A stretch of DNA of 21,799 nucleotides from Chiloscyllium plagiosum (taxonomy: Eukaryota), in assembly GCF_004010195.1 (NCBI RefSeq), contig NC_057718.1, positions 93,584,561 to 93,606,359 of the forward strand, written 5' to 3'. Under the pieces are notes generated by a model. The model worked only from the letters and a program-made list of their open reading frames with translations, made no database searches and was not told where the DNA came from. A program made the translations under genes and the position numbers. Positions 1,526-21,799 of this stretch are shown here, piece after piece. The first letter of the stretch is position 1. The number at the start of each line of letters is the position of its first letter.

Positions 1526-1559
1526 GTAGGCAAAAGCAATGTGCAAGCATTGCACCTTT

Positions 1560-1830
1560 ATCAAAATAAAAATGGTGGCCATGCAGACAGCCAGTTTGTC
1601 AATCCCCACAACAACACCATGACCAATCAGAATCTACTTGCCTGCTTTGGGAATTAAGATTGACAGTTAATGGTTATGGCTGCATTTCCATGCGAATGAC
1701 CGCCCATCCAATGAGCACTGTCTTCTCCTTCTGTATAAAATGGCATCCCTTTGTTCAAATCTGTTTCTTACACCTTACTTCTGAAGAGCGCAAGATGAAA
1801 GGCTTGAACTTCTTGTCTTCAGTTAACAAT
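1560..1830 (+). mobile_element. Old Penelope-like pseudo-LTR with CCAAT/TATA-like motifs and a degenerate hammerhead
   Basis: CCAATCAG (~1623), CCAATGAG (~1708), TATAAAA (1734-1740), then CTGAAGAG-cgcaagat-GAAA-GGCTT (1781-1805). This layout resembles PLE pLTRs. Confidence 0.5.
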
Positions 1831-1837
1831 GGTTAAC

Positions 1838-2680
1838 GAGATCATTTGGCCCATCATGTCTGCCCTGGCTCTCTGATGAGCATGATTACTTAGTGCCATA
1901 CATTTGTCTTTTCCCTATATCCTTTCAGATTGTTTCAATTCAATTAATCATTCAGTGTCCTCTTAAATGTCCCAGCTGACTCTGCCACCATTTTACCTCC
2001 AGACAGGTCATTCCGGAATGGAACCTCTCACTGTGTGAAAAAAAATTCTCAAATCATATTTGCTACATGTGCAATTCACTTTGAATCTGTGCTGTCTCAT
2101 ACTCAATCCTATTATGAGCAAGGGCAAATTCTCCATATCTACGCTGTCCAGAACTTTCACCATTTTAAAAACCTTCTCTCAGATCTCCTGTTAACTTGCT
2201 TCTCTGCAAAGAGAATAATCCCAACCTTTTCAATCGATCCTCATCACTGAAGTTCCTCATCCTTGGAGCCATTCGTGAACGTATCTTTTGCACTCTTTCC
2301 AATTTGTTCAGTGTGGCTCTCAGAACCTCACATGAGCAAACTGTGGTCCAACATGTGTCTTGAACAAGTTCAGCTCTTGCCCTCCATAGCCCTATTAATA
2401 AAGCACATAATATTGTATGATTCACTAACTATCTTCAGTATTGCAAACTTCAGTGATCTATGCATGTAAATACATCCAGTCCCTGTGAATTTGCATCCCA
2501 TTAGGCATTGTACTCTTATTTTACATTGACTGTCCATATTCTCCCTCGCAAACTGCTTCATGTCAGATTTCTCTGCAGTGAATCTCATCTGTCACATTGT
2601 CTATGTCCTTTTGGAGTTCTACACTGTCTTCCTCACAATGTAACCAACTTTTGTGTTATCCATCACTTTGAAGTAGTCCA
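1838..2680 (-). mobile_element. Degenerate CR1 LINE 3' portion
   Basis: Minus ORF 2165-2425 KLERVQK..RMAPRMRNFSDEDRLKRLGLFSLQRSKLTGDLREGF; MRFTAEK motif at ~2588; CR1-type 3'UTR near 1840-1930. Confidence 0.85.
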
Positions 2681-2682
2681 CT

Positions 2683-3078
2683 GCTCTGGATTTAAGTCCA
2701 TCTTGGAGATCTGAGGATAGCAATCTAGACATAAACTCCAACACAGTTCTAACACTGCAGTGTTAGAGATGCTGTCCTTGAGATGAGACATTAAAGCTGG
2801 GGTTGCAGGTGGATTTTAAAGATCCCACAGCATGTTTCAAAGGACACAGTGGCATTATAGTCAGTACATTGGCCCAGTTTAATCACTCAATCAATATTAA
2901 TGTATTAGATTATCTGATAATTATCACGCTGATGTGCATGGAGCTTATTGTTTGTAAGTTGGCTCCTGTGTTTCATTTATTACGATGGTGACTCCACTTC
3001 TAAGTATTAATTGGTTGGAAATGTTTTTGTATGTCCTGACATCATGACAGGAGCTAAATAAATCCAAACTTTTATTTT
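2683..3078 (+). mobile_element. Deu-domain SINE (SacSINE1/AmnSINE1-like), diverged
   Basis: gatgagacattaaa...caggtggattttaaagatcccacagca...agattatctgataattatcac...gtgactccacttc...taaataaatccaa resembles the Deu domain and 3' tail as recalled. Confidence 0.75.
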
Positions 3079-3754
3079 CATTTTGAAATAATAGAGAAAG
3101 GAATCTAATGGGAAATACATTGTGTACGTTCTCAGCAATAAGGTATTTTACCAGATGGGGCAATGCTTCTGTAACCCCCTGTAACATTAGAAACTGAACA
3201 CAGATTTTGTGGTTTGAAGAATTTGACTGATGTGTATCACAACTAGCTCGTATATACAAAAGTTACATTAATCAGGCACATAGGTGCTTGGGCTAATATT
3301 AAGCTGTCACATTTCATCACAGGAAGTGATCTGAGGGAAGGTGGAGTATGTCACTGTTATGTTCTCAGATCACATGTTATCATACAGGGATGATATCATG
3401 AGCTAAATTATGCTAATAGTAGAAGGTACGTTGACCGTGAGACATAACACAAACGCACATTAAGATTCATAGAATAATCTTGTAAGCAGTAATTCCTCAC
3501 TGAGTAATTTGAATGAAATCCAGAAAACAAAATTAGTTTGTGGCCCTAAATGCTTGCATTTTACACATACTGAGTGTCTTGTGTTCAGAACTGTTTTGAT
3601 AATCTTGCTATCTTACAAGGTATGTCAATGTGCATGCAGGAGTTAATATTGAGGGATTAGCTTTGGCCCAGTCAGTGCCCTCTCACCTCTGAAGGCCTCA
3701 GGGTAAAGCTCTGTTCCAGAGCTCTGTGCACATGCTTAAAGCCTCTACTGGTGT

Positions 3755-4595
3755 AGGAGGAAGGCCAGAGGAGATTCACAAGAATGATCCCAGGGATGAA
3801 AGGCTTGACATATGAGGAGCAGTTGAGGACTTTGGGTCTGTACTCAGTGGAGTTTAGAAGGAAGAGGGGGAATCCGATTGAAACTTACAGAAAACTGAGA
3901 GGCCAGTATAGGGTGGACACGGAGAAGATGTTTCCACTAGTAGGACAGACAGGACACGAGGGCACAGCCTCAGAGTGAAGGGATGACTCTTTAGAACTGA
4001 CATAATAGAGGAATTTCTTTAGCCATAGCTTAGCGAATCCGTGGAACCCATCGCCATTGTGGGCGGCACGGTGGCACAGTGGTTAGCACTGCTGCCTCAC
4101 AGCGCCAGAGATCCGGGTTCAATTCCCACCTCCGGCGACTGACTGTGTGGAGTTTGCACGTTCTCCCCGTGTCTGCGTGGGTTTCCTCCGGGTGCTCCGG
4201 TCCGTGTCTGCGTGGGTTTCGTCCGGGTGCTCCGGTTTCCTCCCACAATCCAAAGATGTGCAGGTCAGGTGAATTGGCCATGCTAAATTGCCCGTAGTGT
4301 TAGGTAAGGGGTAAATGTAGGGGTATGGGTGGGTTGCGCTTCGGCGGGTCGGTGTGGACTTGTTGGGCCGAAGGGCCTGTTTCCACACTGTAAGTAATCT
4401 AATCTAATCTAATTAAGAAGACAATAGAGGCCAACTAATTGAGTGTATTTGAGATAAAAGTAGATAGGTTCTTGATTAGTTATGGGGAGAAATCAGGAGA
4501 ATAGTGTTGAGAAACATATCAGCCATGATCGAATGGTGAAGCAAACCCGATGGACCGGATGGGCTCATTCTGTTTCTATACCTTATGGTCTTATG
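3755..4595 (+). mobile_element. CR1 LINE 3' end, interrupted by an HE1 SINE at 4061-4413
   Basis: ORF 3784-3978 MIPGMKGLTYEEQLRTLGLYSVEFRRKRGNPIETYR; resumes at 4414 with the CR1 C-terminus and 3'UTR, ending cttatggtcttatg. Confidence 0.88.
4061..4413 (+). mobile_element. HE1 SINE (tRNA-derived V-SINE), young full-length copy with internal 35-bp duplication
   Basis: A box GTGGCACAGTGG, B box GGTTCAATTCC, V-domain ggagtttgcacgttctccccgtgtctgcgtgggtttcctccgggtgctccggtttcctcccaca, CR1-like tail and (CTAAT)n; CpGs largely intact. Confidence 0.95.
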
Positions 4596-4767
4596 ATGTG
4601 GAGGTGCCGGTGTTGCACTGGGGATGGACACAGTTAAAATGCACACTACACCAGGTTATAATCCAACAGGTTTATTTGAAAGTACAAGATTTCGGAACGC
4701 TCCTAAAGCTTGTACTTCCAAATAAACCTTTTGGACTATAACATGGTGTTGTGTGATTTTAAACTTA
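4596..4767. mobile_element. Foldback element, probably from inverted Penelope-like pLTRs
   Basis: Arms ~4632-4698 and ~4699-4765 are reverse complements with few mismatches (acaccaggttataatccaacaggtttatttgaaagtacaag / cttgtacttccaaataaaccttttggactataacatggtgt). Confidence 0.75.
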
Positions 4768-4807
4768 TTACCTTTTGGTAGCGGATATCTGAAAATAGAT
4801 TATCATT

Positions 4808-5260
4808 AGACACCCTCTGACTCATTAATGTCCCTCAGGGAAGGAAATGGATACCCTACAGTATGGAAACAGGCCCTTCGACCCAACAAATCCACACAGA
4901 CCTTCTGAAGAGCGACCCATCTTGACCCATTCCCCACCTTATATTTACCCCTGAGATTACACCTAAAACTATGGGCAGTTTACCATGGCCAATTCACCTG
5001 GCCTGCACATCTTTACACTGTGGGAGGAAACCCACATAGACACAGGGAGAATGTGCAAACTCCACACAGACAGTCGCCCAAGGCGGGAATCAAACCCATA
5101 TCCCTGGCGCTGTGAGGCAGCAGTGCTATCCACTGAGCCACCCTTTTGTTATCTTTACCTGGTCTGGCTGACATGTGACTCCAGACACATGGCAATGTGG
5201 TTGATTCTTAACTGCCCTCTAAACGGGGCATTTTAAGGGCAATTAGGGATACACAACAAC
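4808..5260 (+). mobile_element. tRNA-derived SINE with L2/CR1-type tail (same family as 8139-9951), split by HE1 at 4850-5142
   Basis: cattaatgtccctcagggaaggaaat | HE1 | atctttacctggtctggctgacatgtgactccagacacatggcaatgtggttgattcttaactgccctc...gggcaattagggat. Confidence 0.8.
4850..5142 (-). mobile_element. HE1 SINE
   Basis: Reverse complement of the 4061-4413 element (cagtgctatccactgagccac; tgtgcaaactccacacagacagtcgcc; ggaaacaggcccttcg), with an internal V-domain deletion. Confidence 0.92.
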
Positions 5261-5586
5261 TGAAAAAGTTAGAACATCACCAGAATGTGAAAGATGCAAG
5301 ACCTTCATCTCCTAAGGTAAAATCTAGTGTTTAAGTCAATGCTATTTACCATGTTTATCAATATCTTTCTCACTGAACAATTTTAACCATTGTTTCAGCA
5401 CTTTTTGTAGCACCGATGACCAACATATTCTCTGATCGCGAACAAATACATTTTTCATTGTCTATTATATGTGTAAACATTTTCGACAGAAGATCAATGG
5501 CAGAAAAAATTACTCCACAACTACTTTTAAATAATACTGTTGTAAAGCATCTTAATCAGGTGTTGAAATGTACATCTTGAGCAATG

Positions 5587-5874
5587 GGCTCAGTGGTTAG
5601 CACTGCAGCCTCACAGCACCAGGGTCCCAGGTTCGATTCCAGTCTCAGGTGACTGTCTGTGTGGAGCTTGCACATTCTCCCAGTGTCTGCATGGGTGTGC
5701 TCTGGTTTCCTCCCACAGTCCAAAGATGTGCAAGTCAGGTGAATTTGCTATGCTAAATTGCCCATAGTGCATTAGTCAGATGGGAAATGGGTCTGGGTGG
5801 GTTACTCTTCGGAGGGGCGGTGTGGACTGGTTGGGCCGAAAGGCCTATTTCCACACTGTAGGGAATCTAATCTA
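5587..5874 (+). mobile_element. HE1 SINE
   Basis: ggctcagtggttagcactgc, B box ggttcgattcc, V-domain, tail ttccacactgtagggaatctaatcta. Confidence 0.93.
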
Positions 5875-7094
5875 TTCATTAAAAGCTGACTATGCTTAAG
5901 CTAATTTGTATGTTAAAATCAAGACACGAGCATATAGTGCCAGTTATCGATAGCATTAATTGCATCAGACACTTTAGAATTGTCAGAGGTTTGAATTTAA
6001 GAATGATTGACATCCAAATAAATGATGAGACCCTTCCAATAAATGACGTGACCCCCAAAGTTAACTGCTACCCCAACAAAAATCTGCTTATTCTGTAGCT
6101 ATGGCTTTTGGAAATGTTCCTGGAAAGTTGAAGAGCCAAACATAATGTAAGCTTAGACAAATAGTTTAAAAATTATCATCAGGAATTTAAACCCGATGGA
6201 GAGCGTAGATACAATGTCACACCTCAGGACAGGGTTATCAAATGAAACTACATGAATATATTTATGGAGGCAGTGCTCAAACTTTATTGCCAATCAGTTC
6301 CTTATAAAAAGAATTATTGTTCATTTGTAATTTACTTTGATGATACAGAAATGATTAGGACTTCAGTTGTTCGCTGAAATGTCATCCCAATGTATTTATA
6401 TTCAGACTTTTGCATTGCTAATTGGATGTCTAAATACATTGTCAGGTGAATAAATACTCCAGCTGAATGCTGCAGCATCAGTGATTAATAACCACACTAC
6501 TTGTGTGGTCTCAAGGAATCATTTATTGCCATTGGCTTATTTGTCCGTCGGGAACATTTTAATTGTTCCCGCGAGAGTCTTGCACTGCAGTTGAGAAGGC
6601 AAACCTTCATCACTTCGATCTTGTTCCTCATCACTGACCCATTCTCTTTTCCTGCCATTACCATTTCCTTTTTCCCTTGCTTTCCCATTTCGTGTTGATT
6701 TTGTTCGGTCTCATTCACCATTTATCAAACTTTAGCTCCTTCTGTCTATCTGATCCAACCTCTTGTTTAATGCCAATTCAACTTTTCTCTTCAGTTGAGT
6801 TTATTTTAAAATCTACTTGCAAGCCTTTGTCCTATTATATGTCATCAGTGTTAAATTCTATTCGACTACACTCCTGTGCAATGCCTTAATTACAATTGTA
6901 ATGGGACATAATTCCAAGCTTTTCTTGATATTATTCTGGAAAGCCTCAGCTTTTCCTGTTAATATTGCTACCACACTTTTGTGGTAGCATGGAGCTGTTC
7001 TCATTTGTGTCTCTATCCTTGCTGTATTGATTTAACCTTTCTCATTTCTGCTCATTCTCTCTTGGCATGTGCTTATTTCTTTCTACCTGACTCA

Positions 7095-7803
7095 GTTGCT
7101 GTCTGTGAGACACAAGGTTGAAGGCTCCAACCTCATCCTATGACTCAAAAACTTATTATCTACCAGACTCTCTGATGCATATGTTTGAGATGCTGTTTAT
7201 CTAAGATGTCAAACCATTTCCCTATCCCTGTGATTCAGATGGATGGTAAAAGGTGCCATGACATAGCTCAAAAGAGCAAAGAGATTCCGTTATCCTGGAA
7301 ATCCACAGCAGCTCCTGACTTGTGATGGGAAGGTGGCAAGGTGGTTAACAATGCTGCCTTACAGTAGCACGGTCCCAGGTTTGATTCCACCCTCAGGTGA
7401 CTGAGTGGGATTTGCATGTTTTCTCTGTGTCTGCGTGGGCTTCCTCTGGGTGCTCTGGCTTCTTCCTGCCAAAGATATGCAGATTAAGTAGATTGGCCAT
7501 GCTAAATTGCTCCATCGTGCTCAGGAATGTGCATGTATGCAGCCATGGGAAATGTGTGGTTATAGGGTAGGAGGCTTGGTCTGGGTGAGATGCTCTTCGG
7601 AGGGTCAGCGTGACTCGATGGGCTGAATGGCCTGGCTTCCACATTGTAGAGATTCTATGATTCATTAATCATAGTCTAGATTGTGATAAAATGCAGTTTG
7701 CAAATGTCTGCTGTGTCGCTTTACTTAACTTCTTCTGTTCAAAACAGTTCATTTTACTATTTTGGGAAGTTGTGGAGTGAAAATATATAAATACAAGTTT
7801 TCG
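7095..7803 (+). mobile_element. Highly diverged Deu-domain SINE, split by the HE1-like SINE at 7327-7663
   Basis: gagatgctgtttatctaagatgtcaaacc...cagatggatggtaaaaggtgccatgaca...aagagcaaagag; after the insert gcaaatgtctgctgtgt...tatataaatacaagttt parallels 2760-3075. Confidence 0.55.
7327..7663 (+). mobile_element. HE1-family SINE, older copy
   Basis: ggtggcaaggtggttaac, ggtttgattcc, V-domain tttgcatgttttctctgtgtctgcgtggg, tail gattctatgattc. Confidence 0.88.
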
Positions 7804-7984
7804 CTTGTCATGCTCCCCAATTGGTTATCCTTTGGTTCCAATCTCCTACTCTGTTTTCCAAAATGTATTCCTTAGCGAAAGCTTTGATGTTCTCTTTATG
7901 TTAATCTCACTGAACATGGTTCTCATAATTTTTGTGTCAGGTTCTCTGCATCACCTCTAACTCTCATTTACTATTGGACTGCCT

Positions 7985-8072
7985 TAGCTAATGTGTTCAG
8001 GCACATTGTGACATGTGGGACTTCAACCTAAATGTTCTGGTCCAGATGTAGGGATATTGTCAATGTCCCACA
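7985..8072 (-). mobile_element. Degenerate tRNA-derived SINE head
   Basis: gtgggacttcaacc (reverse B-box-like ggttgaagtcccac) and gtagggatattgtcaatgtcccaca (reverse A-box-like). Confidence 0.4.
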
Positions 8073-8138
8073 TGAATTCTAATCCTTGACTTCTTTTGCC
8101 ATTCATTTTTTCTGTGCTTGTTTGTGACCTGGTTAATT

Positions 8139-8360
8139 GAGGCAATGGCCTAGTGGTATTATCACTGGACTATTATAGAGACCCAACCATTCTTGGAAGC
8201 TGGGTTCAAATCTCCACCATAGCAGATGGTGCAATTTGAATTCATTAAAAAATTTGGAATTAAGAGACGAATAATAACCATGAAGCCACTGTCAATTGTT
8301 TGGGGAAGAAAACCCATCTGGTTCACTAACATCCTTTAGGGAAGGGAACTGCCATCCTTA
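8139..8360 (+). mobile_element. tRNA-derived SINE, 5' part (3' part at 9807-9951)
   Basis: A box TGGCCTAGTGG, B box GGTTCAAATC, body ...aaacccatctggttcactaacatcctttagggaagggaactgccatcctta. Confidence 0.85.
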
Positions 8361-9806
8361 GAAAGTAGTGAAATAGATGGTGATACCTTGCAAAATGTCC
8401 ATATTACAGAGGAGGAAGTGCTGGATGTCTTGAAATGCATATAGGTGGATAAATCCCCCGAATCTGATCAGGTGTACCCTCGAACTCTGTGGGAAGCTAG
8501 AGAAGTGATTGCTGGGCTACTTGCTGAGATATTTGTATCATCGATAGTCACAGGTGAGGTGCCGGAAGACTGGAGGTAGGCAAACATGGTGCCACTCTTT
8601 AAGAAGGGTAGTAAGGACAAGTCAGGGAACTTTAGACCAGTGAGCCTGAAGTCAGTGGTAGGCAAGTTGTTGGAGGGAATTCTGAGGGACAGGATGTACA
8701 TGTATTTGGAAAGGCAACGACTGATTAGGGATAGTCAACATGGCTTTGTGCGTGGGAAATCATGTCTCACAAACTTGATTGAGTTTTTTGAAGAATTAAC
8801 AAAGAGGATTGATGAGGGCAGTGCAGTAGATGTGATCTAAATGGACCTCAGTAAGGCGTTTGACAAGGTTCCCCATTGGAGACTGGTTAGCAAGGTTAGA
8901 TCTCATGGAATACAGGGCGAACTAGCCATTTGGATACAGGACTGGCTCAAAGGTAGAAGACAGAGGGTGGTAGTGGAGGGTTGTTTTTCAGATTGGAGGC
9001 TTGTGACCAGTGGAGTGCCATAAGGATCGGTGCTGAGCCCTCTACTTTTTGTCATTTACATTAATGATTTGGATGCGAGCATAAGAGGTACAGTTAGTAA
9101 GATTGCAGATGATACCAAAATTGGAGGGGCAGTGGACAGCAAAGAGGGTTACCTCCGATTACAACAGGATCGTGACTTGATGGGCCAAAGAGCAGAGAAG
9201 TGGCAGATGGAGTTTAATTCAGATAAATGCGAGGTGTTGCATTTTGGGAAAGCAAATCTTAGCAGGTCTTATACACTTAATAGTAAGATCCTGGGGAATG
9301 TTGCTGAACAAAGAGACCTTGGAGTGCAGGTTTCTGAAAAGATTTACAAGGATGTTGCCAGGGTTGGAGGATTTGAGCTACAGAGAGAGGCTGAACAGGC
9401 TGGGGCTGTTTTCCTTGGAGCGTCGGAGGCTGAGGGGTGACCTTATAGAAGTTTACAAAATTATGAGGGACATGGATAAGGTAAATAGACAAAGTCTTTT
9501 CCCTGTGGTTGGGGAGTCCAGAACTAGAGGGCATAGGTTTAGGGTGAGAGGGGAAAGATTTAAAAGAGACATAAGGGGAAACTATTCACACAGAGGGTGG
9601 TATGTGTATGGAATGAGCTGCCAGAGGATGTGGTGGAGGCTGGTACAATTGCAACATCTAAAAGGCATTTGGATGGGTATATGAATAGGAAGGGTTTGGA
9701 GGGATATGGGCCGGGTGCTGGCAGGTGGGACTAGATTGGGTTGGGATATCTGGATGGCATGGACCAAAGGGTCCTTTTCCAAGCTGTACATCTCTGTGCC
9801 TCTATG
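8361..9806 (+). mobile_element. 5'-truncated CR1 (HER1-like) LINE with inactivated reverse-transcriptase domain
   Basis: RT motifs VPLFKKG..NFRPVSL, QHGF, DLSKAFDKVPH, SGVP*GSVLSPLLFVIYINDL, KIADDTK; in-frame stops at 8838-8840 and 9021-9023; internal deletion near 9332; C-terminus LGLFSLERRRLRGDLIEVYK..RTRGH; 3' tail similar to HE1. Confidence 0.96.
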
Positions 9807-9951
9807 ACCTGGTCTGGCTTACGTGTAACTCCAGACCCACAGTGATATGGTTGACTCTTAACTGCCCCCTGGGCAACTGTGGATGGGCAATAAATGTTGG
9901 TATAGCCAGTGATGCCCAAATATCATGTGAATGAATAAAAACAAAAGAAAA
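9807..9951 (+). mobile_element. 3' part of the SINE that begins at 8139
   Basis: acctggtctggcttacgtgtaactccagacccacag...ggatgggcaataaatgttggtatagccagtgatgccc...gaatgaataaaaa joins to ...gccatcctta at 8360 (compare the uninterrupted copy at 13100-13170). Confidence 0.88.
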
Positions 9952-10100
9952 ATCAAACTCCTTTCAGCAGATTGTCTATTCTCGATCTCTCTCATTCCTA
10001 CGCATATCTCTTCATGTGCATCTTCACCTTTCAAACTGCTGGTTGTATACCCTTTTGTCTTTGTTCTATTCTGTTTCTATTTGCTGAGGGTAGTCTTGGT

Positions 10101-10228
10101 TAGAGACAAAAAAAAAACTGCAGATGCTGGAATCCAAAGTAGACAGGCAGGAGGTTGGAAGAACACAGCAAGCCAGGCAGCATCAGGAGGTGGAGAAGTC
10201 AACATTTTGGGTATAACCCTTCTTCAGG
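10101..10228 (-). mobile_element. Penelope-like pLTR fragment with degenerate hammerhead
   Basis: Minus strand: CTGAAGA-A-GGGT-tat-ACCC-aAAA-TGTT-gact...ctgatgctgcctggcttgctgtgttcttcca...attccagcatctgcagttttt. Confidence 0.8.
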
Positions 10229-10764
10229 TGGACTTGATGCTGTTTCTGAGGCACCCACTTCATTCCTGATAAGAATCTCTCTGGAGGGAAGCTCCCTGAT
10301 GAGAGAAGAACTTCATCCTTTCACTTCATTGCTCTCCTCCTCTTAGCTCTTCTCTCTGTTGGATGTTTGGGGTCTCATATACATGGAGTTGGATCTCAGT
10401 ATCCTGAGTCTTGTGGAACAGCTTGCTGGTGGTGGTACAGCTCTTCTTATTGCTCAACAGAGATTCCTGGTGAAACTGCACAGGCTGATCCCACACCGCA
10501 CCAACGGTTGACAGCAAGGAGGAGCAGATCAAATTGAGTGAAGTCCAAGACTGGAAATTGTCTGTCAAGCGGTGAGAGCATTCTCTACGTGGAAAGGTTG
10601 CAAGCTATATCGTTCACCTCGGCGAGACTGTGGCTATCCAACGTCATTTTTTGAAGAATTTCCAGATTCACTGAACAAGTGTCCATCTCTCCCCTTGCTG
10701 TGCAGTCACCTGAACCTCCCTGTGGACCCACTTAGCTGAGGAAACCATTAACTGTTAAAGTCCG

Positions 10765-10968
10765 ATATTCAAAGCTTAGACAGATGGACAGATTTTAATT
10801 GGGAAGAAAGGCAAGGCATATGGGGAAAAGGCAGGAGATTGGAGTTCAGAACGAACAGCTCAGGCATGATCTCATTGGACACCAGGGCAGACTCAATGGG
10901 CTGAATGGTCTATTCCAGCGCCGATGGGCTGAATGGTCTATTCCAGCTCCTATACCATACGCTCTACT
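10765..10968 (+). mobile_element. Old CR1 3'UTR fragment with a 24-bp tandem duplication
   Basis: aggcatatggggaaaaggcaggag..tggagtt...catgatctcattg...atgggctgaatggtctattccagctcctata is a typical CR1 3' end. Confidence 0.75.
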
Positions 10969-12316: not shown

Positions 12317-12410
12317 GCTCCCCTGGTGGCCTGGGTAAAGAGACTGCCCAGACCAGCTCAAAGTCACATAGACCAGAACAATTCAAGTTTGATTCCCAGT
12401 CTGGCGATTC
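12317..12410 (+). mobile_element. Possible degenerate tRNA-derived SINE head
   Basis: A-box-like GTGGCCTGGGTAAAG and B-box-like GTTTGATTCCC, with flanking AGACCAG/AGTCTG arms. Confidence 0.35.
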
Positions 12411-12632
12411 TTGAAGCAATAAAAATGGCTCCATCTTCGCTGGTTAGAGAAAGGAAAAAAATATTTCATGGATTCCCTCTCGACCCTTGCTGGAAAATAT
12501 GGATGTTGGGTTGGAATCGGGGAAGCATTTCCATTCTATACAGTTTGGAATAAATATGTTCATTTGTGTATAAAACGCCATGCTCCTATCAGTTTCCCTC
12601 CCGATATGATTAATTTCTATCCCACAGAGAAA

Positions 12633-12905
12633 ACAAATTGTATTCATATGGCATATTTCATGAACATAAGATTCCAGAATGCAGAAGTTTTTGAAGTGGA
12701 CGTTTGGCTTTAATACAGGAAACACAGCAACCAATTTAGCTATAGCAAGGACCCACAATGTGATAGCGACCAAATAATCTATATCGTCTGATGTTGATTG
12801 AGTGACCAATATTGGTCTGGGCTCTGGGGATAACTCTCTGGGTCTTCTCCTTCAAACGAAAATGCCATGGCAATTCTTCCACCCATTCGAGTTGGCACAC
12901 AGGGA
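12633..12905 (-). mobile_element. Deu-domain SINE (SacSINE1-like), diverged
   Basis: Reverse complement parallels 2800-3075 (tttttgaagtgg...ggaaacacagcaaccaattt...gaccaaataatct...gatgttgattgag...aatattgg...tgccatgg). Confidence 0.7.
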
Positions 12906-13220
12906 ATTGGTGTTGTCATGGCAATGTCACTGCAAGAGTAATGCAGATGCCCAGGTTAACTCTCTAGGGATGTGCATTCAAATGCCACCATGGCAGAAAT
13001 TAAAATTGATTAATAAATCTTGAATTGAAAGCCAGTTTTAATCATGGTGCCCATGACAGCCAGCGTTGATTGTCAATCAAAACCTACCTTCACTAATGGA
13101 AGGAAATCTGCCGTCCTTACCTGGTCTGGTCTACAAGTAACTCTAGACCCATAGCAAAGTGGTTGACTCTTGATTGTTGTCAATGGGTTATAAGGAATGG
13201 GCTAAAAATGCTGGTCTTAT
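12906..13220 (+). mobile_element. tRNA-derived SINE with L2/CR1-type tail (family of 8139-9951), uninterrupted older copy
   Basis: ttcaaatgccaccatggcag...ttcactaatggaaggaaatctgccgtccttacctggtctggtctacaagtaactctagaccc...gtggttgactctt...atgggctaaaaatgctgg. Confidence 0.8.
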
Positions 13221-13889
13221 CCACTAAAGTTGCCAACTGTGATTAAATATATTCCTAGCTTCATCCCTGCTGGCTCCATTGCCAACACTTCCATCCTGGT
13301 TATGAAATGCCTTGCTATGCCAATTAGAAAACAAAATGATTCTTTACCCACTTGGCTATTGCTTGGCTGTCGACCAAACAGCCATTGTTTTTCCAATTTC
13401 AGTATGTTAAGATCTGCCAAAGAGTTCATGTTCAAATAAAAAAATCCTGAAGATTGATCTTCAACCCACATCCTATGAAACAATACATTTTAAAAACAGA
13501 TCTTGGTTTAATCTCGCAACCGAAAGATGGAATTGTGTGAAGACATATCCAGAAATCATGAGACATACAGGGCTTTAAGGAATGTTGCAACATAGCCATT
13601 TCTGCTATCAAGCACCAACGTAATTACATGCACTTCATCACACCTAGGAACTGACATTCAGGCAGAAGTGCAATGTTGATCACTTTGCACCAATAGGAGG
13701 AACAAATGGTATTGGGTAGTTAAGGCTCAGCAATTACAGCTCCCAGGCCCAACATTTTAATTGGCCCTTCTATAATGCTTAGGGATTTGTGGCTTAAATT
13801 GTGTGTTTAAAAATGAGTTTACTGTCTGAGCTGAATCACACATAAATTATTTGTGCCTGTGAAATGGAAAAGTCATGGAAAGATTTAGG

Positions 13890-14437
13890 CCATAACATGA
13901 TAAGAATGGAAGTAGGCCATTCAGCCCATTGAGTCTGCTCTGCTATTCAGTGAGATCATGGCTGACCTGATAGCTCTCAATTCCACTGTTCTGCCTTTTC
14001 CCATAACCCTTCATTGCCTTACTACTGAAAGATCTGCCAGTTTCAGCATTGATGGCCCAGCCTCATCTGCCCTTTGTGGTAAAGAATTCCACAGACTCAC
14101 ATCATTCTGAGAAAAGAGAAATTCCATTTCATCTCTGTGCAATGCCTTATTTTAAGATTATCCCCTTTGGTCCTAGACTTTCCCACAAGTGGAAACAACC
14201 TTTCTGTATCTAAGCATCAAACTGCCTCAGAATCTCATTGAAATTCTTCAATATTCCAATGAGTACAGACCCAACCAAGTTAATCTCTCCTCATAAGACA
14301 ATCTCTCCATACTTGGTACCTGCCTGGTGAACATTTTCTTGACTGCCTTCAGTCCCAGTATACCTTAGACAACCGGCCAAAAATCCTTTGCAGCACCCTA
14401 GCTGTGGGCTGACCAGTGCCTTATATAGTTTGAACAG
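13890..14437 (-). mobile_element. CR1 LINE 3' end; short continuation at ~14949-14990
   Basis: Tail cataacatgataagaatggaagtaggccattcagcccattgagtctgc; minus ORF contains LFKLYKALVSPQLGCC.GF. Confidence 0.85.
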
Positions 14438-14948
14438 TTTCTCTGTCCTTGGCATGCTGCAATGTTCCAGCTGATCACAGCACAAACTGGGAAAGCAACA
14501 TCCCATCTTCAAACTAGACACTTTAATAACCTTCTGGTTTCAACATTGAGTTCGACACCTTCAAATTATGAACCCATTCCTTCCCTTTCTTTTAGCTTTA
14601 ATGGTTGCAATCTTCAGTCAACATGTCCTGTCTCCCGTCTCCCCAACCCAGTGGGAATGTCTGTTCTATCCACTCTGGCAGTTAGACACACCATTGTTCT
14701 ACCATTCTCGCATTCTGATGACGTAATCTGAACTGTCAACATCCTTTCTCCCCCAGCACTCCAAACCAACCCCTGTCCACTACAGCATAAATGCTACCCC
14801 GTCCACACTTTACTTCAGCTCTGATGAAGAGTCATCTAGACTCAAAACGTTAGCTTGCTCTGTCTCCGTGGATGATTTTTGACCCATTGTGATTGCCAGC
14901 ATTTGTTGTTTTCAGTACTGATTCCAGCATCTGCAGTAATTTGCTCCG
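14438..14948 (+). mobile_element. 5'-truncated Penelope-like retroelement (GIY-YIG C-terminus plus pLTR with hammerhead)
   Basis: Degenerate GMLQCSS*SQHKLGKQHPIFKLDTL/PSGFNIEF resembles the PLE GIY-YIG C-terminal E..(W/L)I..L.T..P.GLN motif. Hammerhead at 14817-14855. Flanked by ATATAGTTTGAACAG / ATATAGTTTAAACGG. Confidence 0.85.
14817..14855 (+). ncRNA. Minimal type I hammerhead ribozyme motif (G12->A, probably inactive)
   Basis: AGCT-CTGATGA-A-GAGTC-atcta-GACTC-aAAA-C-GTT-AGCT: 4-bp stem I, 5-bp stem II, palindromic ACGT stem III. Confidence 0.7.
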
Positions 14949-15441
14949 ATATAGTTTAAACGGAACCTTCTGACTTTTATGCTCAATTATACCTTAGTGC
15001 TCTTGTTCTTTGGTATTGTCAGTCAACCCCTCCCTGCCTGAGATCCGAAGATTCCTTTCAGCAGATGTGAGGGCTTTAAGCGGCTCTTGATGGAAGACAG
15101 GCTGGCAAAAAGCACCCCAAGGTGACGACTTGATGGGATGGGGAGTAGGGAGAAGAAAATCAGAAGAACAAGCAGCCAGAGAGGCATCAATCCTAGTTGC
15201 TCAGATTCAGGCCCCGTTCCATTTTACAATACATGGAATCTCAAAACAAGAGATTCCCAGTGAAACCTTGTTGTCATCCAAATGAGATATTTAAACAAGG
15301 TTCTGAAGTTCCAAGAAAGTAAATGTGAAAAGGGAACCAAAAGAGCAAATTCATTACAGACCACTCAATATTTGATAACATTAGCATTGAACTAGAATTG
15401 AAAACAGTACGATGTATTTAATCCGATGAAGTAGAGCAAAA

Positions 15442-15774
15442 GGAGCGAAGTAGTGGCTCAGTGGTTAGGGCTGCTGCCTCACAGTACCAGGGACCTGGGT
15501 TCGATTCCACTCTCAGGCAACTGTCTGTATGGAGTTTGCACATTCTCTGCGTTGGTTTCCTTTGGGTGCTCTGGTTTCCTCCTACAGTCCAAACATATGC
15601 AGGTTACGAGGATTGGTCATGTTAAATTGCCCATATTGCCCAGGGACATGTTGACTGAGTGGGCTAGCCATGGGCAAGGCAGGCTTACAAGGATGAGGTG
15701 AGTCTGGGTGGGTTGCTCTTTGGAGGGTTGGACTCAATGGACTGAATGGCCTGATTCCACACAGAAATTATATG
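15442..15774 (+). mobile_element. HE1-family SINE, older copy
   Basis: gtggctcagtggttag, gggttcgattcc, ggagtttgcacattctc..ggtttcctttgggtgctctggtttcctcc, CR1-like tail. Confidence 0.88.
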
Positions 15775-16260
15775 AAAAGCTGAGAATCGATAGTTTATGA
15801 GGGACTAATTGGATGGGATGGATTGAGGACAAGTTTTATTAGGATTTCAGATAAAGAGCAAACTAGGCCAGTAAATGGAAGGAATCTTGCATTAAAGCCT
15901 GGCATTCTGATCTTCCAAGTTGTGTTGAGATTCGGACAGATCACTCTTCATTTTCTCTCTTCTGATTTTAGTTTGTCACTTCAGTGCAATCCCATTGAAC
16001 AGGTACAAGAGATATAGCCTCCTGAGACACTCTAAGGGCAGAGTGTATTCCAAAATGCTTCCCACTTGGACCTACTCATTGGAAATACAGTTCCAAGGTT
16101 GCAGTAGGAAGATTGCTTACTGCATTGAGTTTAGCATAAGCAGTGTGCACCCTGATTACTGTCCCATCCAAATGGGGCATTGCATGGGGTGCAGGAACAC
16201 CCAGAGAGGAATACTGCACCTCATTAGGACCTCACTTTATACCAGTTGACAAGATAGCCC

Positions 16261-16340
16261 TGGGCTCAAAACATTAGCTTGCTCTCTCTCCATGGATGCT
16301 GCCTGACCCATTGTGATCTCCAGCATTTGTCATCTTCAGA
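16261..16340 (+). mobile_element. Penelope-like pLTR fragment (same subfamily as 14438-14948)
   Basis: ctcaaaacattagcttgctctctctccatggatgctgcctgacccattgtgatctccagcatttgt closely matches 14841-14907. Confidence 0.8.
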
Positions 16341-16659
16341 CAAGACAGCAGGCTTGGTCTGCTCCTACTAGACCTTCCAAGCCAATTGCAGTTGACATGG
16401 AACCCTAATGTGTTTATCCATCGCAGTCGAAATAATTACAGTTCTGTCCTGGAACCAATCATTTCTCGCAAAAGTCAGGCAATTTGTGACCTTCACTGCA
16501 AATCCAATTTTAAGTACAAGTATTACAGAAGTACAAATTAAGTACAAATATCCCTCACCCGAATTGCAGGAAGCTTACAAAATGTGACTATTTTCACTTA
16601 AAGACTAAATAGGTCCCATTTACCAACTGAACCACGAGACTACAGAGAAATACAGACAT

Positions 16660-16875
16660 GGTTGTGAATGGTGACAAAGTGACTCACAGCATGAAATGTG
16701 TGGAAATGGAATATCATTCACTTTGGTTTGAAGAATAGAAAGAATGTGTTTTCAAAATTGTGAAATAGCTAAGTGCTGATTTTCAGTGGGACTTGGAAGT
16801 GCTTGTACAAGAAATATAAATCATTAGAATGCAGGTACAGCAAAAGATTAGCAAGAAAAATGTCATTTCTTTTTG
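16660..16875 (+). mobile_element. Old CR1 ORF2 internal fragment
   Basis: Degenerate K.EV.HFG-like segment (tggaaatggaatatcattcactttgg), then DL.VLV (gggacttggaagtgcttgt) and MQVQQ.I.K.N-like sequence. Confidence 0.6.
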
Positions 16876-17017
16876 ATGTATCCCTATGCCATGCTATACC
16901 CTTTCACCAATCTCCCTCCTTGATGCCCCAATATCTGTCAAGTTAAGCTATATCCCCCCCCCATCCACCTCATATATCCCATCATACTTTCCCTGCCAGG
17001 CCATGACATCTAGATGG

Positions 17018-17209
17018 AAGTGGGTACTGCAGACGCTGGAGATCAGAGTCAAGATTAGAGTGGAGAAGCACAGCAGATCAGGCAGCATCCGAGGAGCAGG
17101 AAAAATCGACATTTCAGGCAAAAGCCCTTCATCAGAAGTGAGGCTGGGAGCCTCAGGGGTGGAGAGATAAATGGGAGGGGGTTGGGGCTGGGGGGAAGGT
17201 AGCTGAGAT
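17018..17209 (-). mobile_element. Penelope-like pLTR with hammerhead
   Basis: Minus strand: pyrimidine tract, CTGATGA-A-GGGC-tttt-GCCT-GAAA-T-GTC, then ggatgctgcctgatctgctgtgcttctcca...ctccagcgtctgcagtaccc. Confidence 0.85.
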
Positions 17210-17606
17210 GCCATGGCATCTGCCAGTCCATTCACTCCCATATAGAATCAATTAATATATAGTGCCAATTGCATGTGTTAAATAAAAACATGTTTCTTTA
17301 AAAACAAAAACCATTCATTCATCATTTTATTCTCTTTCTTTAAATAAAACTCTATTCCCCACAGGTTAACAAAAATAACAATAGCAGAAACTGCAAACAC
17401 TTGAAACACATAATGTCTTGTGTACATAAACATTGTGCTATGACAGTAGAGACCAGAAGGCCAGCGTGTAATGAAAGCATTGTTTTCTCTGGGGTTCAGA
17501 TGTTTTAACAATCTAATGGATGTCTGGATTCTCAGCCAAGAATGTTTCATGCAGTTTATTGGCCTGTCGCTGTACACATTTTTCATACGTCTGTAGTTGA
17601 TCGAAA

Positions 17607-17655
17607 GCTGAATTCACTTGCCACCAGATAGTACTGCTGAATTCACTTGCCACCA
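17607..17655. repeat. Perfect 20-bp direct repeat, period 29
   Basis: GCTGAATTCACTTGCCACCA at 17607-17626 and 17636-17655. Confidence 0.95.
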
Positions 17656-18116
17656 ATAGCGGAAAGTTTGATGCCCTTGCTAACTCTGGTACCACATTGT
17701 TTATGCCACAGATAAAACATGCCACAGGATGAAGGCACTCATAATCAAGACAAGCACCAGTTTTTATCCATGCCCAGCCTTCACCTTCAGCTCCTCAGCT
17801 CTAAATTGAGACCCCACTCAGATTGAGGAGTGTTTTCACTGGGAGCTCATGTCCGCTGTGGTGTGAAGGGCTTCTTTATCGAATGAACTAGCTCTTTTAG
17901 TTCATTATAAAACATTCATACATTTGCCACAGACTTTACTTACAGCTGAATGTTTCCTCAGCTCAGAGAAAGAAAGAACTGATGTAATCCATTACTTTGG
18001 CTCATTGGCCAGCTGCTCCCCACAAGGCAGCAGTGTTGTTGTGCACAAGCCTGGAGTTTTACAAGAGAGCGGTAAAAACAAGCAAATTCCTGCGTTAAAG
18101 CACACATCTGTGTCAA

Positions 18117-18154
18117 AGAGAGTGAGTGAGTGAGAGAGAAAAAGAGAGAGAGAG
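18117..18154. repeat. (GA)n/(GTGA)n microsatellite
   Basis: agagagtgagtgagtgagagagaaaaagagagagagag. Confidence 0.9.
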
Positions 18155-20384
18155 TTGGTACTTTGCAGCTGAAAGATGCACACCCAAATATGAAGCAGTT
18201 ACCACCACTTCTGAGTGAAGGTTTAATGCACGTGGAACATGCGATCCTACAGAACTATCTGTCCCTCTGAAATTGCCATTGAGCCCCGAACAGTTACTGT
18301 ACAAATTGCAACCCAACCCAACCATAAAGCCCCTGCAGACCACTCTGTCACTTCACACATTTTTAAGTTATGATGGGAGAGGGGGGGAAAAACATTTCAG
18401 AGAAATTAAACCTGACATGGTGAATGCAAAATCCAGAATATTACTGTCTGCAGAACAATGGTGAACAGGGAACAGCGTATCTCAGCTGTCTGTTAAGGAG
18501 CGGCCTGTACCTTTCACTTGACATGTAAGGTTTCCTGGACAACACCTGGCTCACATTGTTGACCTCCAACTGAACGGACCCATTATGCACTCATAATGCT
18601 TTCTGCACTTGGTTCCTCCTTTTCACTACACCACTGTGCTGTGCACACACTGAAAAATCGCACAGATTCAGATCGCAGATGTCAATGAACGGAAGGGACA
18701 GGTTTCAGCTCGATACATTCAAGATGTCTGCCGGGCACTGGCGGTCTAAGCCTTAAGGCTGCATAGCTTCAAGACGGATCACTGTATCCTTTCACTGGTC
18801 AAAGTAAGTCAGGCAGAAAGCTCAAAGAGTTAAATGCTTTGCTCCGTCTCCCTGCCGTGTGTTACTTTGACATAGTTACAAGATTTATAAGATTTATTTG
18901 TGGAGTCTGGCAGCCATTTGGCCTCTACGTCAGTCCTGTGAACCAGATCCAATTGTTCACTCATAATGATAATGTTTTAATTACAAGATGTGTAGAAGTC
19001 CCCTTCTAAATTGTCACTTAATCGGAAAGTTTTTAAACTACATCATTTAAATAAATACATTGCTCATTTCAAATGTATGAAACTCCTGATTTGCGCTTGT
19101 TTATTTTAATTGGCAGGAAAACAGGTTAAAGTCCAATACATCATATGTCCTTTGGTGATACAATTTAAACCCAAAATTCCAAAAAAAAACTCTTGCATAT
19201 TGCGTGGCTAAATGTTCCAAAGATGTACCCCTCTGCTAAACATGCAATATATCTCCCTCTTTCCAAACAGAAACGGATTTCTTCAATTCATTTGATAAAT
19301 TTGACCTCAAATTTCCAGTTGGTATTATTGCAGATCCTGGTGTTTATGTTCATGTTGGTGGGCCAAGCACTAATCACCCAAATCTCCCAGGGAGGCAATA
19401 AATTACTGTCTTGAGATGGCGCTTTGTATCCCTATTGCTGCCGAGTAAGCTGATTTCACAGCGGTGTATTTTGACAGCCCGGACTTTAAATCATTGTTTT
19501 ATGACAGATGGGAAAACTTGTACATGTTCATGGTGCTGATTTATGTTCATTTGAGTCTGGAGGATTCCATAATTTGAGATGAATGTGAAAACAGATCGAT
19601 CCTCAGACACTGAAGGGGCTTGGCTGGGCTGTATATTCTCATTACTCGAAACAAATGGCATCCATATGAGTTTGAGGGAATTATTCAGTGTGAGCCTCTT
19701 TGGTGTCATGTAGTTAGTCAATGAAAAGATCCTACACAAGCAGGCAGAAGCAAGCATTAATTTTGGCATCAACAAGGTATCTACAATTGTACGATAATTG
19801 TCTGCAAACATTATGTTCAGAATGATGGAACTAATAAATTGCAACTTGGTGGTAAATAGCAACTTTCACCTCCCCGCTGCCTCAAAACTGCTTGTCATAT
19901 TCAAAAGCAACTGCGCCGAATAAATAAGGTCAATGAAGAGTTTTATAGGTAGCAGCAAACCTCGAACGTTATAGCAAATGAAAGTTGTTTAATGCCGACA
20001 TCTGACAGAGTGTACCGGGGAGATTTTTAACTGGAGGGCTACCAACATGACCAGGTTAAGGGACCACGTATCTTACTAACATTGGGCCTTCTATCGAATG
20101 AAGTCTACTTTGGTAGGCCGGTGGTGGAATTCATACCTTGGGAAGTGCCAGACTTTCCATTGGCTCTCAGTGTTAACACAGTGGGATCTTTTATCAGGGA
20201 TCATGTCATTAATTAAACAGTAAAGAACATTTCATACATTATTGCAGAAAGAATTGGACTGATGCGTTACTCAGAAAAAAGGCTCTAACAGCCAAGTTGT
20301 GACATTTTTGCTCCCCCACCTCACCACACCACACTTTGGAATGTTATATTTTTCAGCCCAGGCTTAACTAACAAGCTGTCAATG

Positions 20385-20500
20385 GTCAATATGGAGTGGG
20401 ACAGGGAGGTGGAAATTTGGAGGTGAAGCCATAATCAAATCAGCTAAGATTCAATGGAAGAGCCAACAGGCTGGAAGAGCCTACTCTTGCTCCGAATTTG
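20385..20500 (+). mobile_element. Old CR1 3'UTR fragment
   Basis: atatggagtgggacagggaggtgga...aatcagctaagattcaatgg...acaggctggaagagcctactcttgctcc resembles the other CR1 3' ends here. Confidence 0.55.
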
Positions 20501-20744
20501 TTCATCCCTATGACTTTCTTTAAATTCTCCCTCAACAAGGTCATCTTTCCCCATTCTGTATTGACCAGGGATATGATCAAAGCCAAAGAGTTTTTCTTCC
20601 CCCACATGCAACATTTTTATGAGACACTCAGTGGGATGGGGACATTGGAGGGCTGTGAGATCGCAAAAATTTGGATATTGGGAGCTAATGAAGTGAGCTA
20701 TCAGATAAAGATTTTCATTACTCATTAGAGACATACAGTAAACT

Positions 20745-20842
20745 CAACAAATCAGAAAGTGCAGGAGAAACTCAGCAAGTTTGGCAGCATCTGTGGAGAG
20801 AGAGCCAGAGACAACAATTCAAGTCCAGTGATTCTCCATAAA
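20745..20842 (-). mobile_element. Diverged Penelope-like pLTR fragment
   Basis: cagaaagtgcaggagaaactcagcaagtttggcagcatctgtggagagaga...aattcaagtccagtgattc parallels the reverse complement of 14830-14915; hammerhead core eroded. Confidence 0.7.
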
Positions 20843-21522
20843 TTCAAATGTTTGGCAGTGCCAAGGGTTGAATCATAAAACTGCTTCGTTGGAAAATGTT
20901 TACCACAAGTCTGCGCTAAATGATTGAGAATAAAAAGATTCAATGTGTAAACAAAAAGAATGTCTTTTCAAATAGTGAGAGCAAGAGAATGAAAACAAAG
21001 GTGGCAGAAATTCAGCTGAAAAATTCAGGCGAAATTTTACTTATTGAGAGGAAAGAAATCTAAATATTTCACAATCACACATTGATTTGAGTGCCTTGAC
21101 ATCAGAATTACACACAACATTTCAAACTTATGTGGCCATTTTATTGTCTTTTTTTAGGGTCAGTTCTTGTGTTAACAGTGAAATCTGACATGTGGTGACA
21201 GTCATCAGAGATTGCAACCCTTGCTACTGTTGGGTCATTGAGGAATTGTCCAGAATTTATTATCAGGAAATTCTGGGGTGTCCAGAAATAAAAACGTCCG
21301 AGCAGACGATATAAACATTCTTTCTAAACTGAAACTTTAGCAGCAAATGGATTGGCTGTTCAAATTCAAAAAGTCTTGATCCAGAATATATCAGTGATCC
21401 CAATTCCCATTCAGTAGGTGTCTCTTATCAGGAGATGGACATCTTAAGTATTATTCCTCTCAAGGAGAAGGATGATTGTGTCATAAATGTACATCTTACT
21501 GACAGTAGTATATAAAATCAAC

Positions 21523-21799
21523 ATCTGGATTAGTGGTGCTGGAAGAGCACAGCAGTTCAGGCAGCATCCAAGGAGCTTCGAAATCGACGTTTCGGGCAAA
21601 AGCTCTTCATCAGGAATAAAGGCAGTGAGCCTGGAGCGTGAAGAGATAAACTAGAAGAGGGTGGGGGTGGGGAGAAAGTAGCATAGAGTTCAATGGGTGA
21701 GTGGGGGAGGGGATGAAGGTGATAGGTCAGGGAGGAGAGGGTGGAGTGGATAGGTGGAAAAGGAGATAGGCAGGTAGGACAAGTCTGGACAAGTCCTGG
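21523..21799 (-). mobile_element. Young Penelope-like element 3' pLTR, running off the window end
   Basis: gtggtgctggaagagcacagcagttcaggcagcatcc...tcgacgtttcgggcaaaagctcttcatcaggaat followed by a purine-rich tract; related to 17018-17209. Confidence 0.88.
21582..21617 (-). ncRNA. Minimal type I hammerhead ribozyme motif with intact catalytic core
   Basis: Minus strand ATTC-CTGATGA-A-GAGC-tttt-GCCC-GAAA-C-GTC-GATT: all conserved core nucleotides and a GUC triplet; one mismatch each in stems I and II. Confidence 0.72.

What the first reader, a model, noticed from the sequence alone, without database searches (positions are those of the whole stretch)
1781..21617. At least four PLE subfamilies keep hammerhead architecture with different, self-complementary stem II sequences
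Seen: stem II is GAGUC/GACUC (14829-14843), GGGU/ACCC (~10211-10221, minus), GGGC/GCCU (~17115-17127, minus), GAGC/GCCC (~21593-21604, minus) and a very short variant at 1781-1805. Each lies just 3' of CUGA(U/A)GA and ahead of GAAA (AAAA in two copies); remnants occur at ~4698, 16261 and 20820. Inference: different sequences with retained pairing indicate structural selection in the parent elements. This density implies a very large genome-wide hammerhead load in sharks, and the ORF-less short copies could be a non-autonomous, retrozyme-like family.
Basis: partly seen in the sequence, partly recalled or inferred. Interest (0 to 1): 0.7.

Follow-up and report, generated by a model that had tools for sequence, protein, structure and literature searches.

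The report
Shark Penelope stubs carrying minimal hammerheads
The small hammerhead-ribozyme motifs are real but damaged in every copy here, and are likely dead end-pieces of Penelope-like jumping genes, an arrangement already in print; in two families many copies begin about four bases before the ribozyme core rather than at its predicted cut site, which would mean they were copied from uncut RNA.

Summary
The motifs are real: 4 hammerhead cores with a stem II of 4 bp or more (allowing one mismatch and A for G12), against 0.28 in shuffles (0 of 300 reach 4). The diversity is overstated. GAGC/GCCC is a mismatch private to one copy; 94-98% of family DNA depth and 643 of 672 RNA reads restore GGGC/GCCC, so it groups with the 17135 copy. 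The 1781 stem does not pair. Three paired stem II types remain, with two-sided changes at 2 of 4 pairs (5 sequences). The copies have 11-13 bp target-site duplications, fixed 3' tails, one fold-back insertion and no tandem array. That fits 5'-truncated Penelope-like elements with the minimal hammerhead of Cervera and De la Pena 2014, not retrozymes. The protein-level link is recalled and was not confirmed. In two families, 5' ends pile up about 4 bases before the core, 31-33 bases after a TATA-like box, not at the cut site. This suggests reverse transcriptase runs off an uncut transcript start. This scan has reported the same on other DNA, including this genome (262 notes, unreviewed). Genome-wide load could not be counted.

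The parts
21524..21799 (-). Family alpha copy, cut by the window end: upstream repeat, TATA-like TTTATC at -37, core 21613-21607, stem II 21605-21594 with a private A-C mismatch at 21604, G12 at 21593, C17 at 21586, tail to about 21524-21533
17012..17209 (-). Family alpha copy, 198 bp, starting 74 bases before C3 (17135); stem II 17127-17116; CpG-type changes in stem II and in the palindromic linker
   Evidence: 66 of 79 aligned bases identical to the 21613 copy
17000..17221 (.). 12-bp target-site duplication (17000-17011 and 17210-17221, one mismatch) around the 17135 copy; a second 12-mer pair (16993/17220) scores equally
   Evidence: 6 of 300 random placements reach this length
10100..10230 (-). 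Family beta copy: core 10227-10221, stem II GGGU/ACCC 10219-10209, A at position 12 (10208), U at 17 (10201); ends approximate, no secure TSD
   Evidence: TSD candidate 30 of 300 in the null
14436..14948 (+). Family gamma insertion, 513 bp: likely coding remnant (about 14436-14570, one stop and one frameshift), untranslated stretch, TATA-like CATAAAT 14786-14792, core 14821-14827, stem II 14829-14843, A at position 12 (14844), predicted cut after 14851, tail to 14948
   Evidence: multi-copy along its whole length in runs X1, X10, X18
14423..14961 (.). 13-bp target-site duplication (14423-14435 and 14949-14961, one mismatch)
   Evidence: 2 of 300 in the null
16259..16338 (+). Family gamma stub, 80 bp, starting inside the stem II loop (no CUGANGA); 11-bp TSD at 16248-16258 and 16339-16349
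   Evidence: (D11, 83%); 4 of 300 in the null
20748..20838 (-). Decayed gamma-like stub, about 91 bp, starting near the core; keeps G at position 12; 9-bp TSD candidate not significant
   Evidence: 51 of 300 in the null
4632..4765 (.). Fold-back insertion: two 65-nt head-to-head arms, 85% complementary, each likely the 3' half of a hammerhead (3' strand of stem II onward) plus a different tail; no CUGANGA core
   Evidence: I9; z -13
1535..1825 (+). Short-stem variant: CCAAT motifs near 1624 and 1707, TATAAA at 1734, core 1781-1787, no bulged A, unpaired GC/AU stem, different tail; boundaries approximate
   Evidence: family sequence not tested

Best explanation
These motifs are decayed minimal type I hammerheads at the 3' ends of dispersed repeat insertions that are likely 5'-truncated, dead copies of endonuclease-positive Penelope-like elements (PLEs). 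Shown: core and stem II anatomy, family-level stem II, fixed 3' ends, 5'-end pile-ups near position -4, target-site duplications, one fold-back. Inferred: the element's protein primes reverse transcription inside its RNA at the tail end, 50-100 bases past the hammerhead (as shown in vitro for the anole Poseidon element), and copies through the uncut hammerhead. On an RNA that starts at the promoter in the terminal repeat, it would run off the transcript start near -4, giving a promoter-less stub of 80-130 bases. On read-through RNA from a tandem donor it would go further, giving longer 5'-truncated copies. Pairing was likely selected in the active parents, and the genomic copies decay neutrally, mostly at CpG. 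Confidence: PLE stubs with the known motif 0.85; run-off from an uncut transcript start 0.5.
For: Motif beyond chance. Bulged A after A9, G10.1-C11.1 and a palindromic linker with no helix III match the published description. 21604 is restored to G in 643 of 672 RNA reads, 97.7% of X1 and 93.8% of X10 depth, and no core position is among the 40 of 68 variant rows shown. Fixed 3' ends: loose ends at 14947 in 647, 677 and 674 contigs of X1, X10, X18, agreement 0.38-0.39; at 21533 and 21524 in 495 and 271 (X1) and 518 and 330 (X10). 5' pile-ups: 21617 in 426 (X1) and 420 (X10) contigs and 222 RNA reads; 14817 in 148, 138 and 122 contigs and 6 reads; both are 4 bases before C3. RNA read depth falls from 757 on the hammerhead to 99 at 22-32 bases upstream. 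TATA-like boxes lie at -35 to -37 in 3 of 3 alpha and gamma copies that extend that far. TSDs of 11-13 bp in 3 of 6 insertions examined. 7 of the 15 joints shown (of 446) are opposite-strand joints at 14817-14820. Papers: internal initiation, tails, unprocessed RNA as the main template (PMC11167929); inverted copies, tails, TSDs, TATA and Inr in the pLTR (PMC3846280; PMC8557442).
Against: No RT or GIY-YIG match: the 44-residue remnant found nothing in two protein searches or Pfam, so the PLE link is recalled. The 21617 pile-up coincides with a point where this copy diverges from its family, and the loose letters begin with four family-like bases, so true ends may lie at -4 to -8 and part of the depth drop may be an alignment effect. 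Only the six largest loose-end rows per run are shown (18 of 786; 24 of 1544), so smaller pile-ups at the cut site are not excluded. No transcript start was measured; table 6 (molecule ends) was empty in both lays. The alpha TATA-like box is a weak match. Whether family gamma has G or A at position 12 is unsettled: both window copies have A, and 14844 is not among the 40 of 73 rows shown.
Confidence: 0.75

Rival explanations
1. The short copies are a self-propagating non-autonomous, retrozyme-like family: transcribed, cleaved as dimers, circularised and reinserted by PLE proteins.
For: Preferred ends and TSDs. Single contigs show head-to-tail joints (21620 back to 21524 in X10; 14947 to 14816 in X18). 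Retrozymes derived from PLE terminal repeats are reported, including in one chondrichthyan (bioRxiv 10.64898/2026.07.22.740005).
Against: No hammerhead-bearing tandem array in the window (0 of 4 rows). Ends are not at the cut site among the rows shown. The motifs are minimal, while described retrozymes carry canonical ones (PMC7229834). Stubs starting at -4 lack the upstream TATA-like box. RNA reads come from both strands in similar numbers (431 vs 327 at 21591-21601), as expected for copies inside host transcripts. Window copies start at -385, -74, beyond -186 and inside stem II.
Confidence: 0.08
2. The 5' pile-up is not a transcript start. It is either a splice acceptor at the front of helix I (as in D. 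virilis Penelope), or a stall or template switch of reverse transcriptase at the folded hammerhead.
For: Family gamma has a pyrimidine run ending in CAG at 14816-14818. The D. virilis intron ends at the 5' end of helix I (PMC4209133). Two window insertions start inside stem II (16259; the 4632-4765 junction).
Against: Loose letters before 14817 are mixed (agreement 0.34-0.35), not one upstream exon, and none of the 15 joints shown (of 446) has GT..AG ends. The spacing from the TATA-like box fits a start site.
Confidence: 0.12
3. The motifs are chance or belong to a repeat class other than PLEs (SINE or LINE ends).
For: No Rfam hammerhead hit; no protein match; individual folds are not better than shuffles.
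Against: 0 of 300 shuffles reach the count; family reads keep the stem; tails, inversions and the lack of a poly(A) end match PLE anatomy.
Confidence: 0.05

Closest known systems
Minimal hammerheads (min-HHR) in pLTRs of metazoan PLEs, including fish Xena, Poseidon and Neptune; Cervera and De la Pena 2014, PMC4209133 (parts 1-2 of 4 read: abstract, results, discussion)
   Same: CUGANGA core, extra base between 9 and 10.1, G10.1-C11.1, palindromic 15.2-16.2 without helix III, short helix I, several covarying families per genome, mostly single dispersed copies from truncated PLEs.
   Different: Sharks are not named in the parts read; counts there are thousands per genome (about 4,000 coelacanth, 9,000 Xenopus), while depth here hints at far more; 5' boundaries were not analysed.
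Poseidon of Anolis carolinensis (PAc); Frangieh et al. 2024, PMC11167929 (parts 1-2 of 4 read)
   Same: Fixed tail ends downstream of the hammerhead, two adjacent ends in family alpha, AT-rich flanks; uncut RNA is the main template in vitro, and no reads end at the cut site.
   Different: A 5'-end pile-up just before the core is not described in the parts read; no protein or activity was tested here.
EN+ PLE insertion units with inverted pLTR, tail and 8-10 bp TSD; Arkhipova et al. 2013, PMC3846280, and Craig et al. 2021, PMC8557442 (matching passages read)
   Same: Head-to-head inverted truncated copies, tail, TSD, TATA and Inr-like motifs in the pLTR.
   Different: TSDs here are 11-13 bp, tails 50-100 bases past the cut site, and the units are tiny.
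Non-LTR retrozymes; Cervera and De la Pena 2020, PMC7229834 (passages read), and Li et al. 2026, bioRxiv 10.64898/2026.07.22.740005 (parts 1-3 of 5 read)
   Same: Non-coding, type I hammerhead, related to PLE terminal repeats; solo monomers exist.
   Different: Retrozymes are tandem repeats with a hammerhead in each unit and make circular RNA; no array is seen here and no circle was tested.

Membership tests
Minimal type I hammerhead of PLEs | CUGANGA core, paired stem II, GAAA, UH | tested here: met
   Family alpha majority restores stem II and shows no listed core variant; single copies each carry one or more damaging changes
Minimal type I hammerhead of PLEs | Bulged base after A9, G10.1-C11.1, palindromic 15.2-16.2 | tested here: met
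   Bulged A in 4 of 5 copies; G-C in 3, G-U in 1; CG linker in 2, UG in 2; the 1781 copy departs
Minimal type I hammerhead of PLEs | G12 in families beta and gamma | tested here: inconclusive
Minimal type I hammerhead of PLEs | Covariation across families | tested here: inconclusive
   4 of 8 pairs with two-sided change (7 of 500 shuffles), score 1 of 500, but 5 related sequences, structure drawn from them, one row misaligned
Minimal type I hammerhead of PLEs | Self-cleavage as a dimer | not testable with these tools
   Needs in vitro transcription; no molecule-end pile-up in a poly(A) single-cell library, which has little power for this
EN+ Penelope-like element | Single frame with telomerase-like RT and GIY-YIG endonuclease | tested here: inconclusive
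   Only a 44-residue remnant; no hits; its stop is private, 66-79% and 86-93% of family depth differing at 14472 and 14473; resemblance to a PLE C-terminus is recalled
EN+ Penelope-like element | Fixed 3' tail past the hammerhead, no poly(A) | tested here: met
   Loose ends at 14946-14947 and at 21524/21533
EN+ Penelope-like element | Variable 5' truncation, inverted copies, TSD | tested here: met
   Starts at -385, -74, beyond -186, inside stem II; fold-back 4632-4765; TSDs in 3 of 6 examined
Non-LTR retrozyme | Tandem units, each with a hammerhead | tested here: not met
   0 of 4 tandem rows hold a hammerhead; head-to-tail joints only in single contigs; the genome was not scanned
Non-LTR retrozyme | Unit boundary at the cleavage site | tested here: not met
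   No row at 21585-21586 or 14851-14852 among the six largest loose-end rows per run
Non-LTR retrozyme | Abundant circular RNA | not testable with these tools
   Only a poly(A) single-cell library gave reads (X21); X22 laid none

The most novel reading that the evidence does not exclude
In shark PLEs the transcript starts about four bases before the hammerhead core, at the first base of helix I. Reverse transcriptase primed at the tail runs off this uncut, capped end, filling the genome with on the order of 100,000 promoter-less hammerhead stubs. The hammerhead fold is conserved across families but does not make either end of the inserted copies, so its job would lie elsewhere (protein binding, translation control or destroying surplus RNA).
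Probability: 0.4. Interest if true: 0.5.

Novelty: new member of a known kind. Interest (0 to 1): 0.22.

Why it matters
As a list of hammerhead variants it adds little: many covarying minimal-hammerhead families per genome were described in 2014. The useful part is the boundary signal. The role of the PLE hammerhead in vivo is open, and the ends of very many stubs are a record of which RNA was copied. If the 5' pile-up is a capped start, it extends to a living genome the in vitro result that uncut RNA is the template, and gives a cheap test (CAGE plus junction analysis).

Tried and rejected
No whole genome is held, so no genome-wide count, consensus set or end map was made. Rfam: no hammerhead among 8 matches. 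A tail motif found 0 viral contigs and 28 metagenome loci, of which 0 of 28 have a hammerhead core within 90 bases upstream; these were treated as chance. Sequencing runs: no RNA holder listed by the index; X22 laid 0 of 8.3 million records (no test); X21 laid 1820 and 66 of 12.96 million reads. The coding remnant gave no hit in two homologue searches and Pfam, which is weak evidence for so short a piece; its identity stays open. TSD candidates at 10227, 20820 and 4698 were rejected as not above chance. Loose-end rows at 21574-21582 and 14861-14902 were set aside as likely alignment breaks, most showing family-like loose letters (agreement 0.44-0.92). Lunse et al. 2017 is not held and was seen only as a reference. 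Paper searches: 'Penelope + shark + hammerhead ribozyme' gave 1 review, listing only; two searches showed no title or abstract describing a 5' pile-up at the transcript start, but subscription papers and supplements (including the species tables of PMC4209133 and the bioRxiv preprint) were not seen and may cover sharks. Look-ups of earlier notes by sequence and by 'G12 A12' gave nothing.
Full report
Observation. The window holds 24 CUGANGA heptamers. Five are followed by a stem-II-like segment and RAAA: C3 at 1781(+), 10227(-), 14821(+), 17135(-) and 21613(-). Against 300 block-wise dinucleotide shuffles, the strict descriptor finds 1 copy (8 of 300 shuffles reach this). Allowing A at position 12 finds 3 (mean 0.05; 0 of 300), and also allowing one mismatch finds 4 (mean 0.28; 0 of 300). 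The relaxed forms were written after seeing the copies. Rfam has no hammerhead among its 8 matches, and single copies do not fold better than shuffles. Both are expected for decayed minimal motifs but give no support.

How many families. Reads and contigs were laid at 80% likeness on 21470-21799. At 21604 the family has G where this copy has A, in 643 of 672 RNA reads (X21), 97.7% of X1 depth and 93.8% of X10 depth. So GAGC/GCCC is a broken GGGC/GCCC. The 17135 copy (GGGC/GCCU, 66 of 79 aligned bases identical) differs from that stem by a C-to-T change at a CpG. I call these family alpha. The variable positions listed inside the motif are N7 (21609) and a loop base (21599); no core position is among the 40 of 68 rows shown. 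The 14821 copy (gamma) has a 5-bp stem with A-U at the second pair and U-A at the fourth. The 1781 variant has no bulged A and a GC/AU stem that does not pair. The 4698 pair keeps only the 3' half of the motif. On the 5-row alignment, 2 of 4 stem II pairs and 2 of 4 stem I pairs show two-sided changes (7 of 500 shuffles; covariation score 1 of 500). The sample is tiny, related, and one row is misaligned, so this is suggestive only. Whether gamma really has G12 is unsettled: both window copies have A, a CpG-type change, the 20820 relative has G, and 14844 is not among the 40 of 73 rows shown.

Anatomy of the insertions. Alpha, beta and gamma share a tail motif after the hammerhead. Three of 6 insertions examined have target-site duplications above chance: 12 bp around 17012-17209, 13 bp around 14436-14948 and 11 bp around 16259-16338 (6, 2 and 4 of 300 random placements; search ranges set by eye). 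The 5' ends in the window vary: -385, -74, beyond -186, and inside stem II. 4632-4765 is a head-to-head fold-back with 65-nt arms. The gamma insertion is multi-copy along its whole length in three organisms. Its first 135 bases read as a broken frame whose stop is private to this copy. From recall this piece resembles the C-terminal end of a PLE endonuclease domain, but two homologue searches and Pfam returned nothing, so this is not shown. No tandem array holds a hammerhead (0 of 4 rows).

Ends at family level. 3' ends are fixed: 14947 in 647, 677 and 674 contigs (X1, X10, X18), with mixed AT-rich loose letters, and 21533 and 21524 for alpha. 5' ends pile up at 14817 (148, 138 and 122 contigs; 6 reads) and at 21617 (426 and 420 contigs; 222 reads). 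Both are 4 bases before C3, although the two families differ in sequence there. RNA read depth falls 7.7-fold from the hammerhead to 22-32 bases upstream. TATA-like boxes lie at -35 to -37 in the three alpha and gamma copies that reach that far. Seven of the 15 joints shown for gamma (of 446) are strand switches at 14817-14820. No row at either predicted cut site is among the six largest per run. Limits: only 18 of 786 and 24 of 1544 rows are shown; the alpha copy diverges from its family just at 21618, so ends there may lie at -4 to -8 and the depth drop may be inflated; table 6 was empty in both lays. RNA reads came from both strands in similar numbers (431 vs 327), as expected for copies inside host transcripts, and say nothing on the element's own RNA.

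Mechanism. Best reading (0.75 overall): these are dead 3'-end copies of EN+ PLEs. Internal priming at the tail is taken from the anole element, where two start sites match the genomic tail ends, hammerhead mutants insert normally, and no reads end at the cut site (PMC11167929). Copies that contain the whole hammerhead must come from uncut RNA if the sense strand is the template (inference). Run-off at a transcript start near -4 would explain the pile-up and the many promoter-less stubs, while read-through RNA would give the longer copies. I took this idea from earlier unreviewed notes of this scan before laying reads, and tested it only in part. Rivals are a retrozyme-like family (0.08), a splice acceptor or reverse transcriptase stall at helix I (0.12), and a non-PLE origin (0.05). 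An antisense template has also been proposed for PLEs (PMC3846280) and was not tested.

Load. No genome is held. Summed contig depth on the alpha hammerhead is about 450,000 times the flank in X1, and on gamma about 8,000-14,000 times; the tool states this is not a copy number. The window has 5 core-bearing motifs in 21.8 kb. An earlier unreviewed note gives over 110,000 intact copies for this genome; I did not check it.

Comparison. The motif matches the minimal hammerhead of PLE terminal repeats, whose many covarying families and dispersed single copies were reported in 2014 (PMC4209133). Inverted copies, tails, TSDs and TATA/Inr motifs in pLTRs are in print. Retrozymes are tandem arrays producing circles; the two defining features testable here were not met. 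Library searches found no shark-specific paper on these motifs and no listing on a 5' pile-up, but supplements and subscription papers were not seen.

Verdict. Real, partly overstated, and a new member of a known kind. Interest 0.22. The 5'-boundary signal is the only part worth following, and the scan has noted it before.

Noticed in passing
window 4073-4410, 4850-5142 (-), 5587-5877, 7332-7650, 15455-15770: Five copies of one interspersed repeat with a tRNA-like head, 69-88% alike in pairs; from recall a shark SINE family.
   Followed up: no
window 8350-9800 (+), 3770-4030 (+), 13900-14400 (-): Broken frames and 3' ends that look like CR1-type LINE reverse transcriptase (family name recalled).
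   Followed up: no
window about 950-1525: A roughly 570-bp stretch ending in ACA next to the 1781 copy, possibly a solo LTR; judged by eye only.
   Followed up: no
window 21568-21548 (-), 17089 (-), 10184 (-), 16295 (+), 20791 (-): The tail motif shared by three families contains an ATG opening a frame in the 17135 copy (frame 16948-17247); it may be the start of the element's protein or a protein-binding site.
   Followed up: no
window 4690-4710: The fold-back junction lies inside stem II, so the stem's own complementarity may have served as the template-switch site.
   Followed up: partly
window 21609: N7 reads A in 44% of RNA reads but 7-12% of DNA depth; probably different subfamily sampling or alignment, unexplained.
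   Followed up: no
window 16993-17004 and 17220-17231: A second 12-bp near-duplication overlaps the target-site duplication of the 17135 copy.
   Followed up: no
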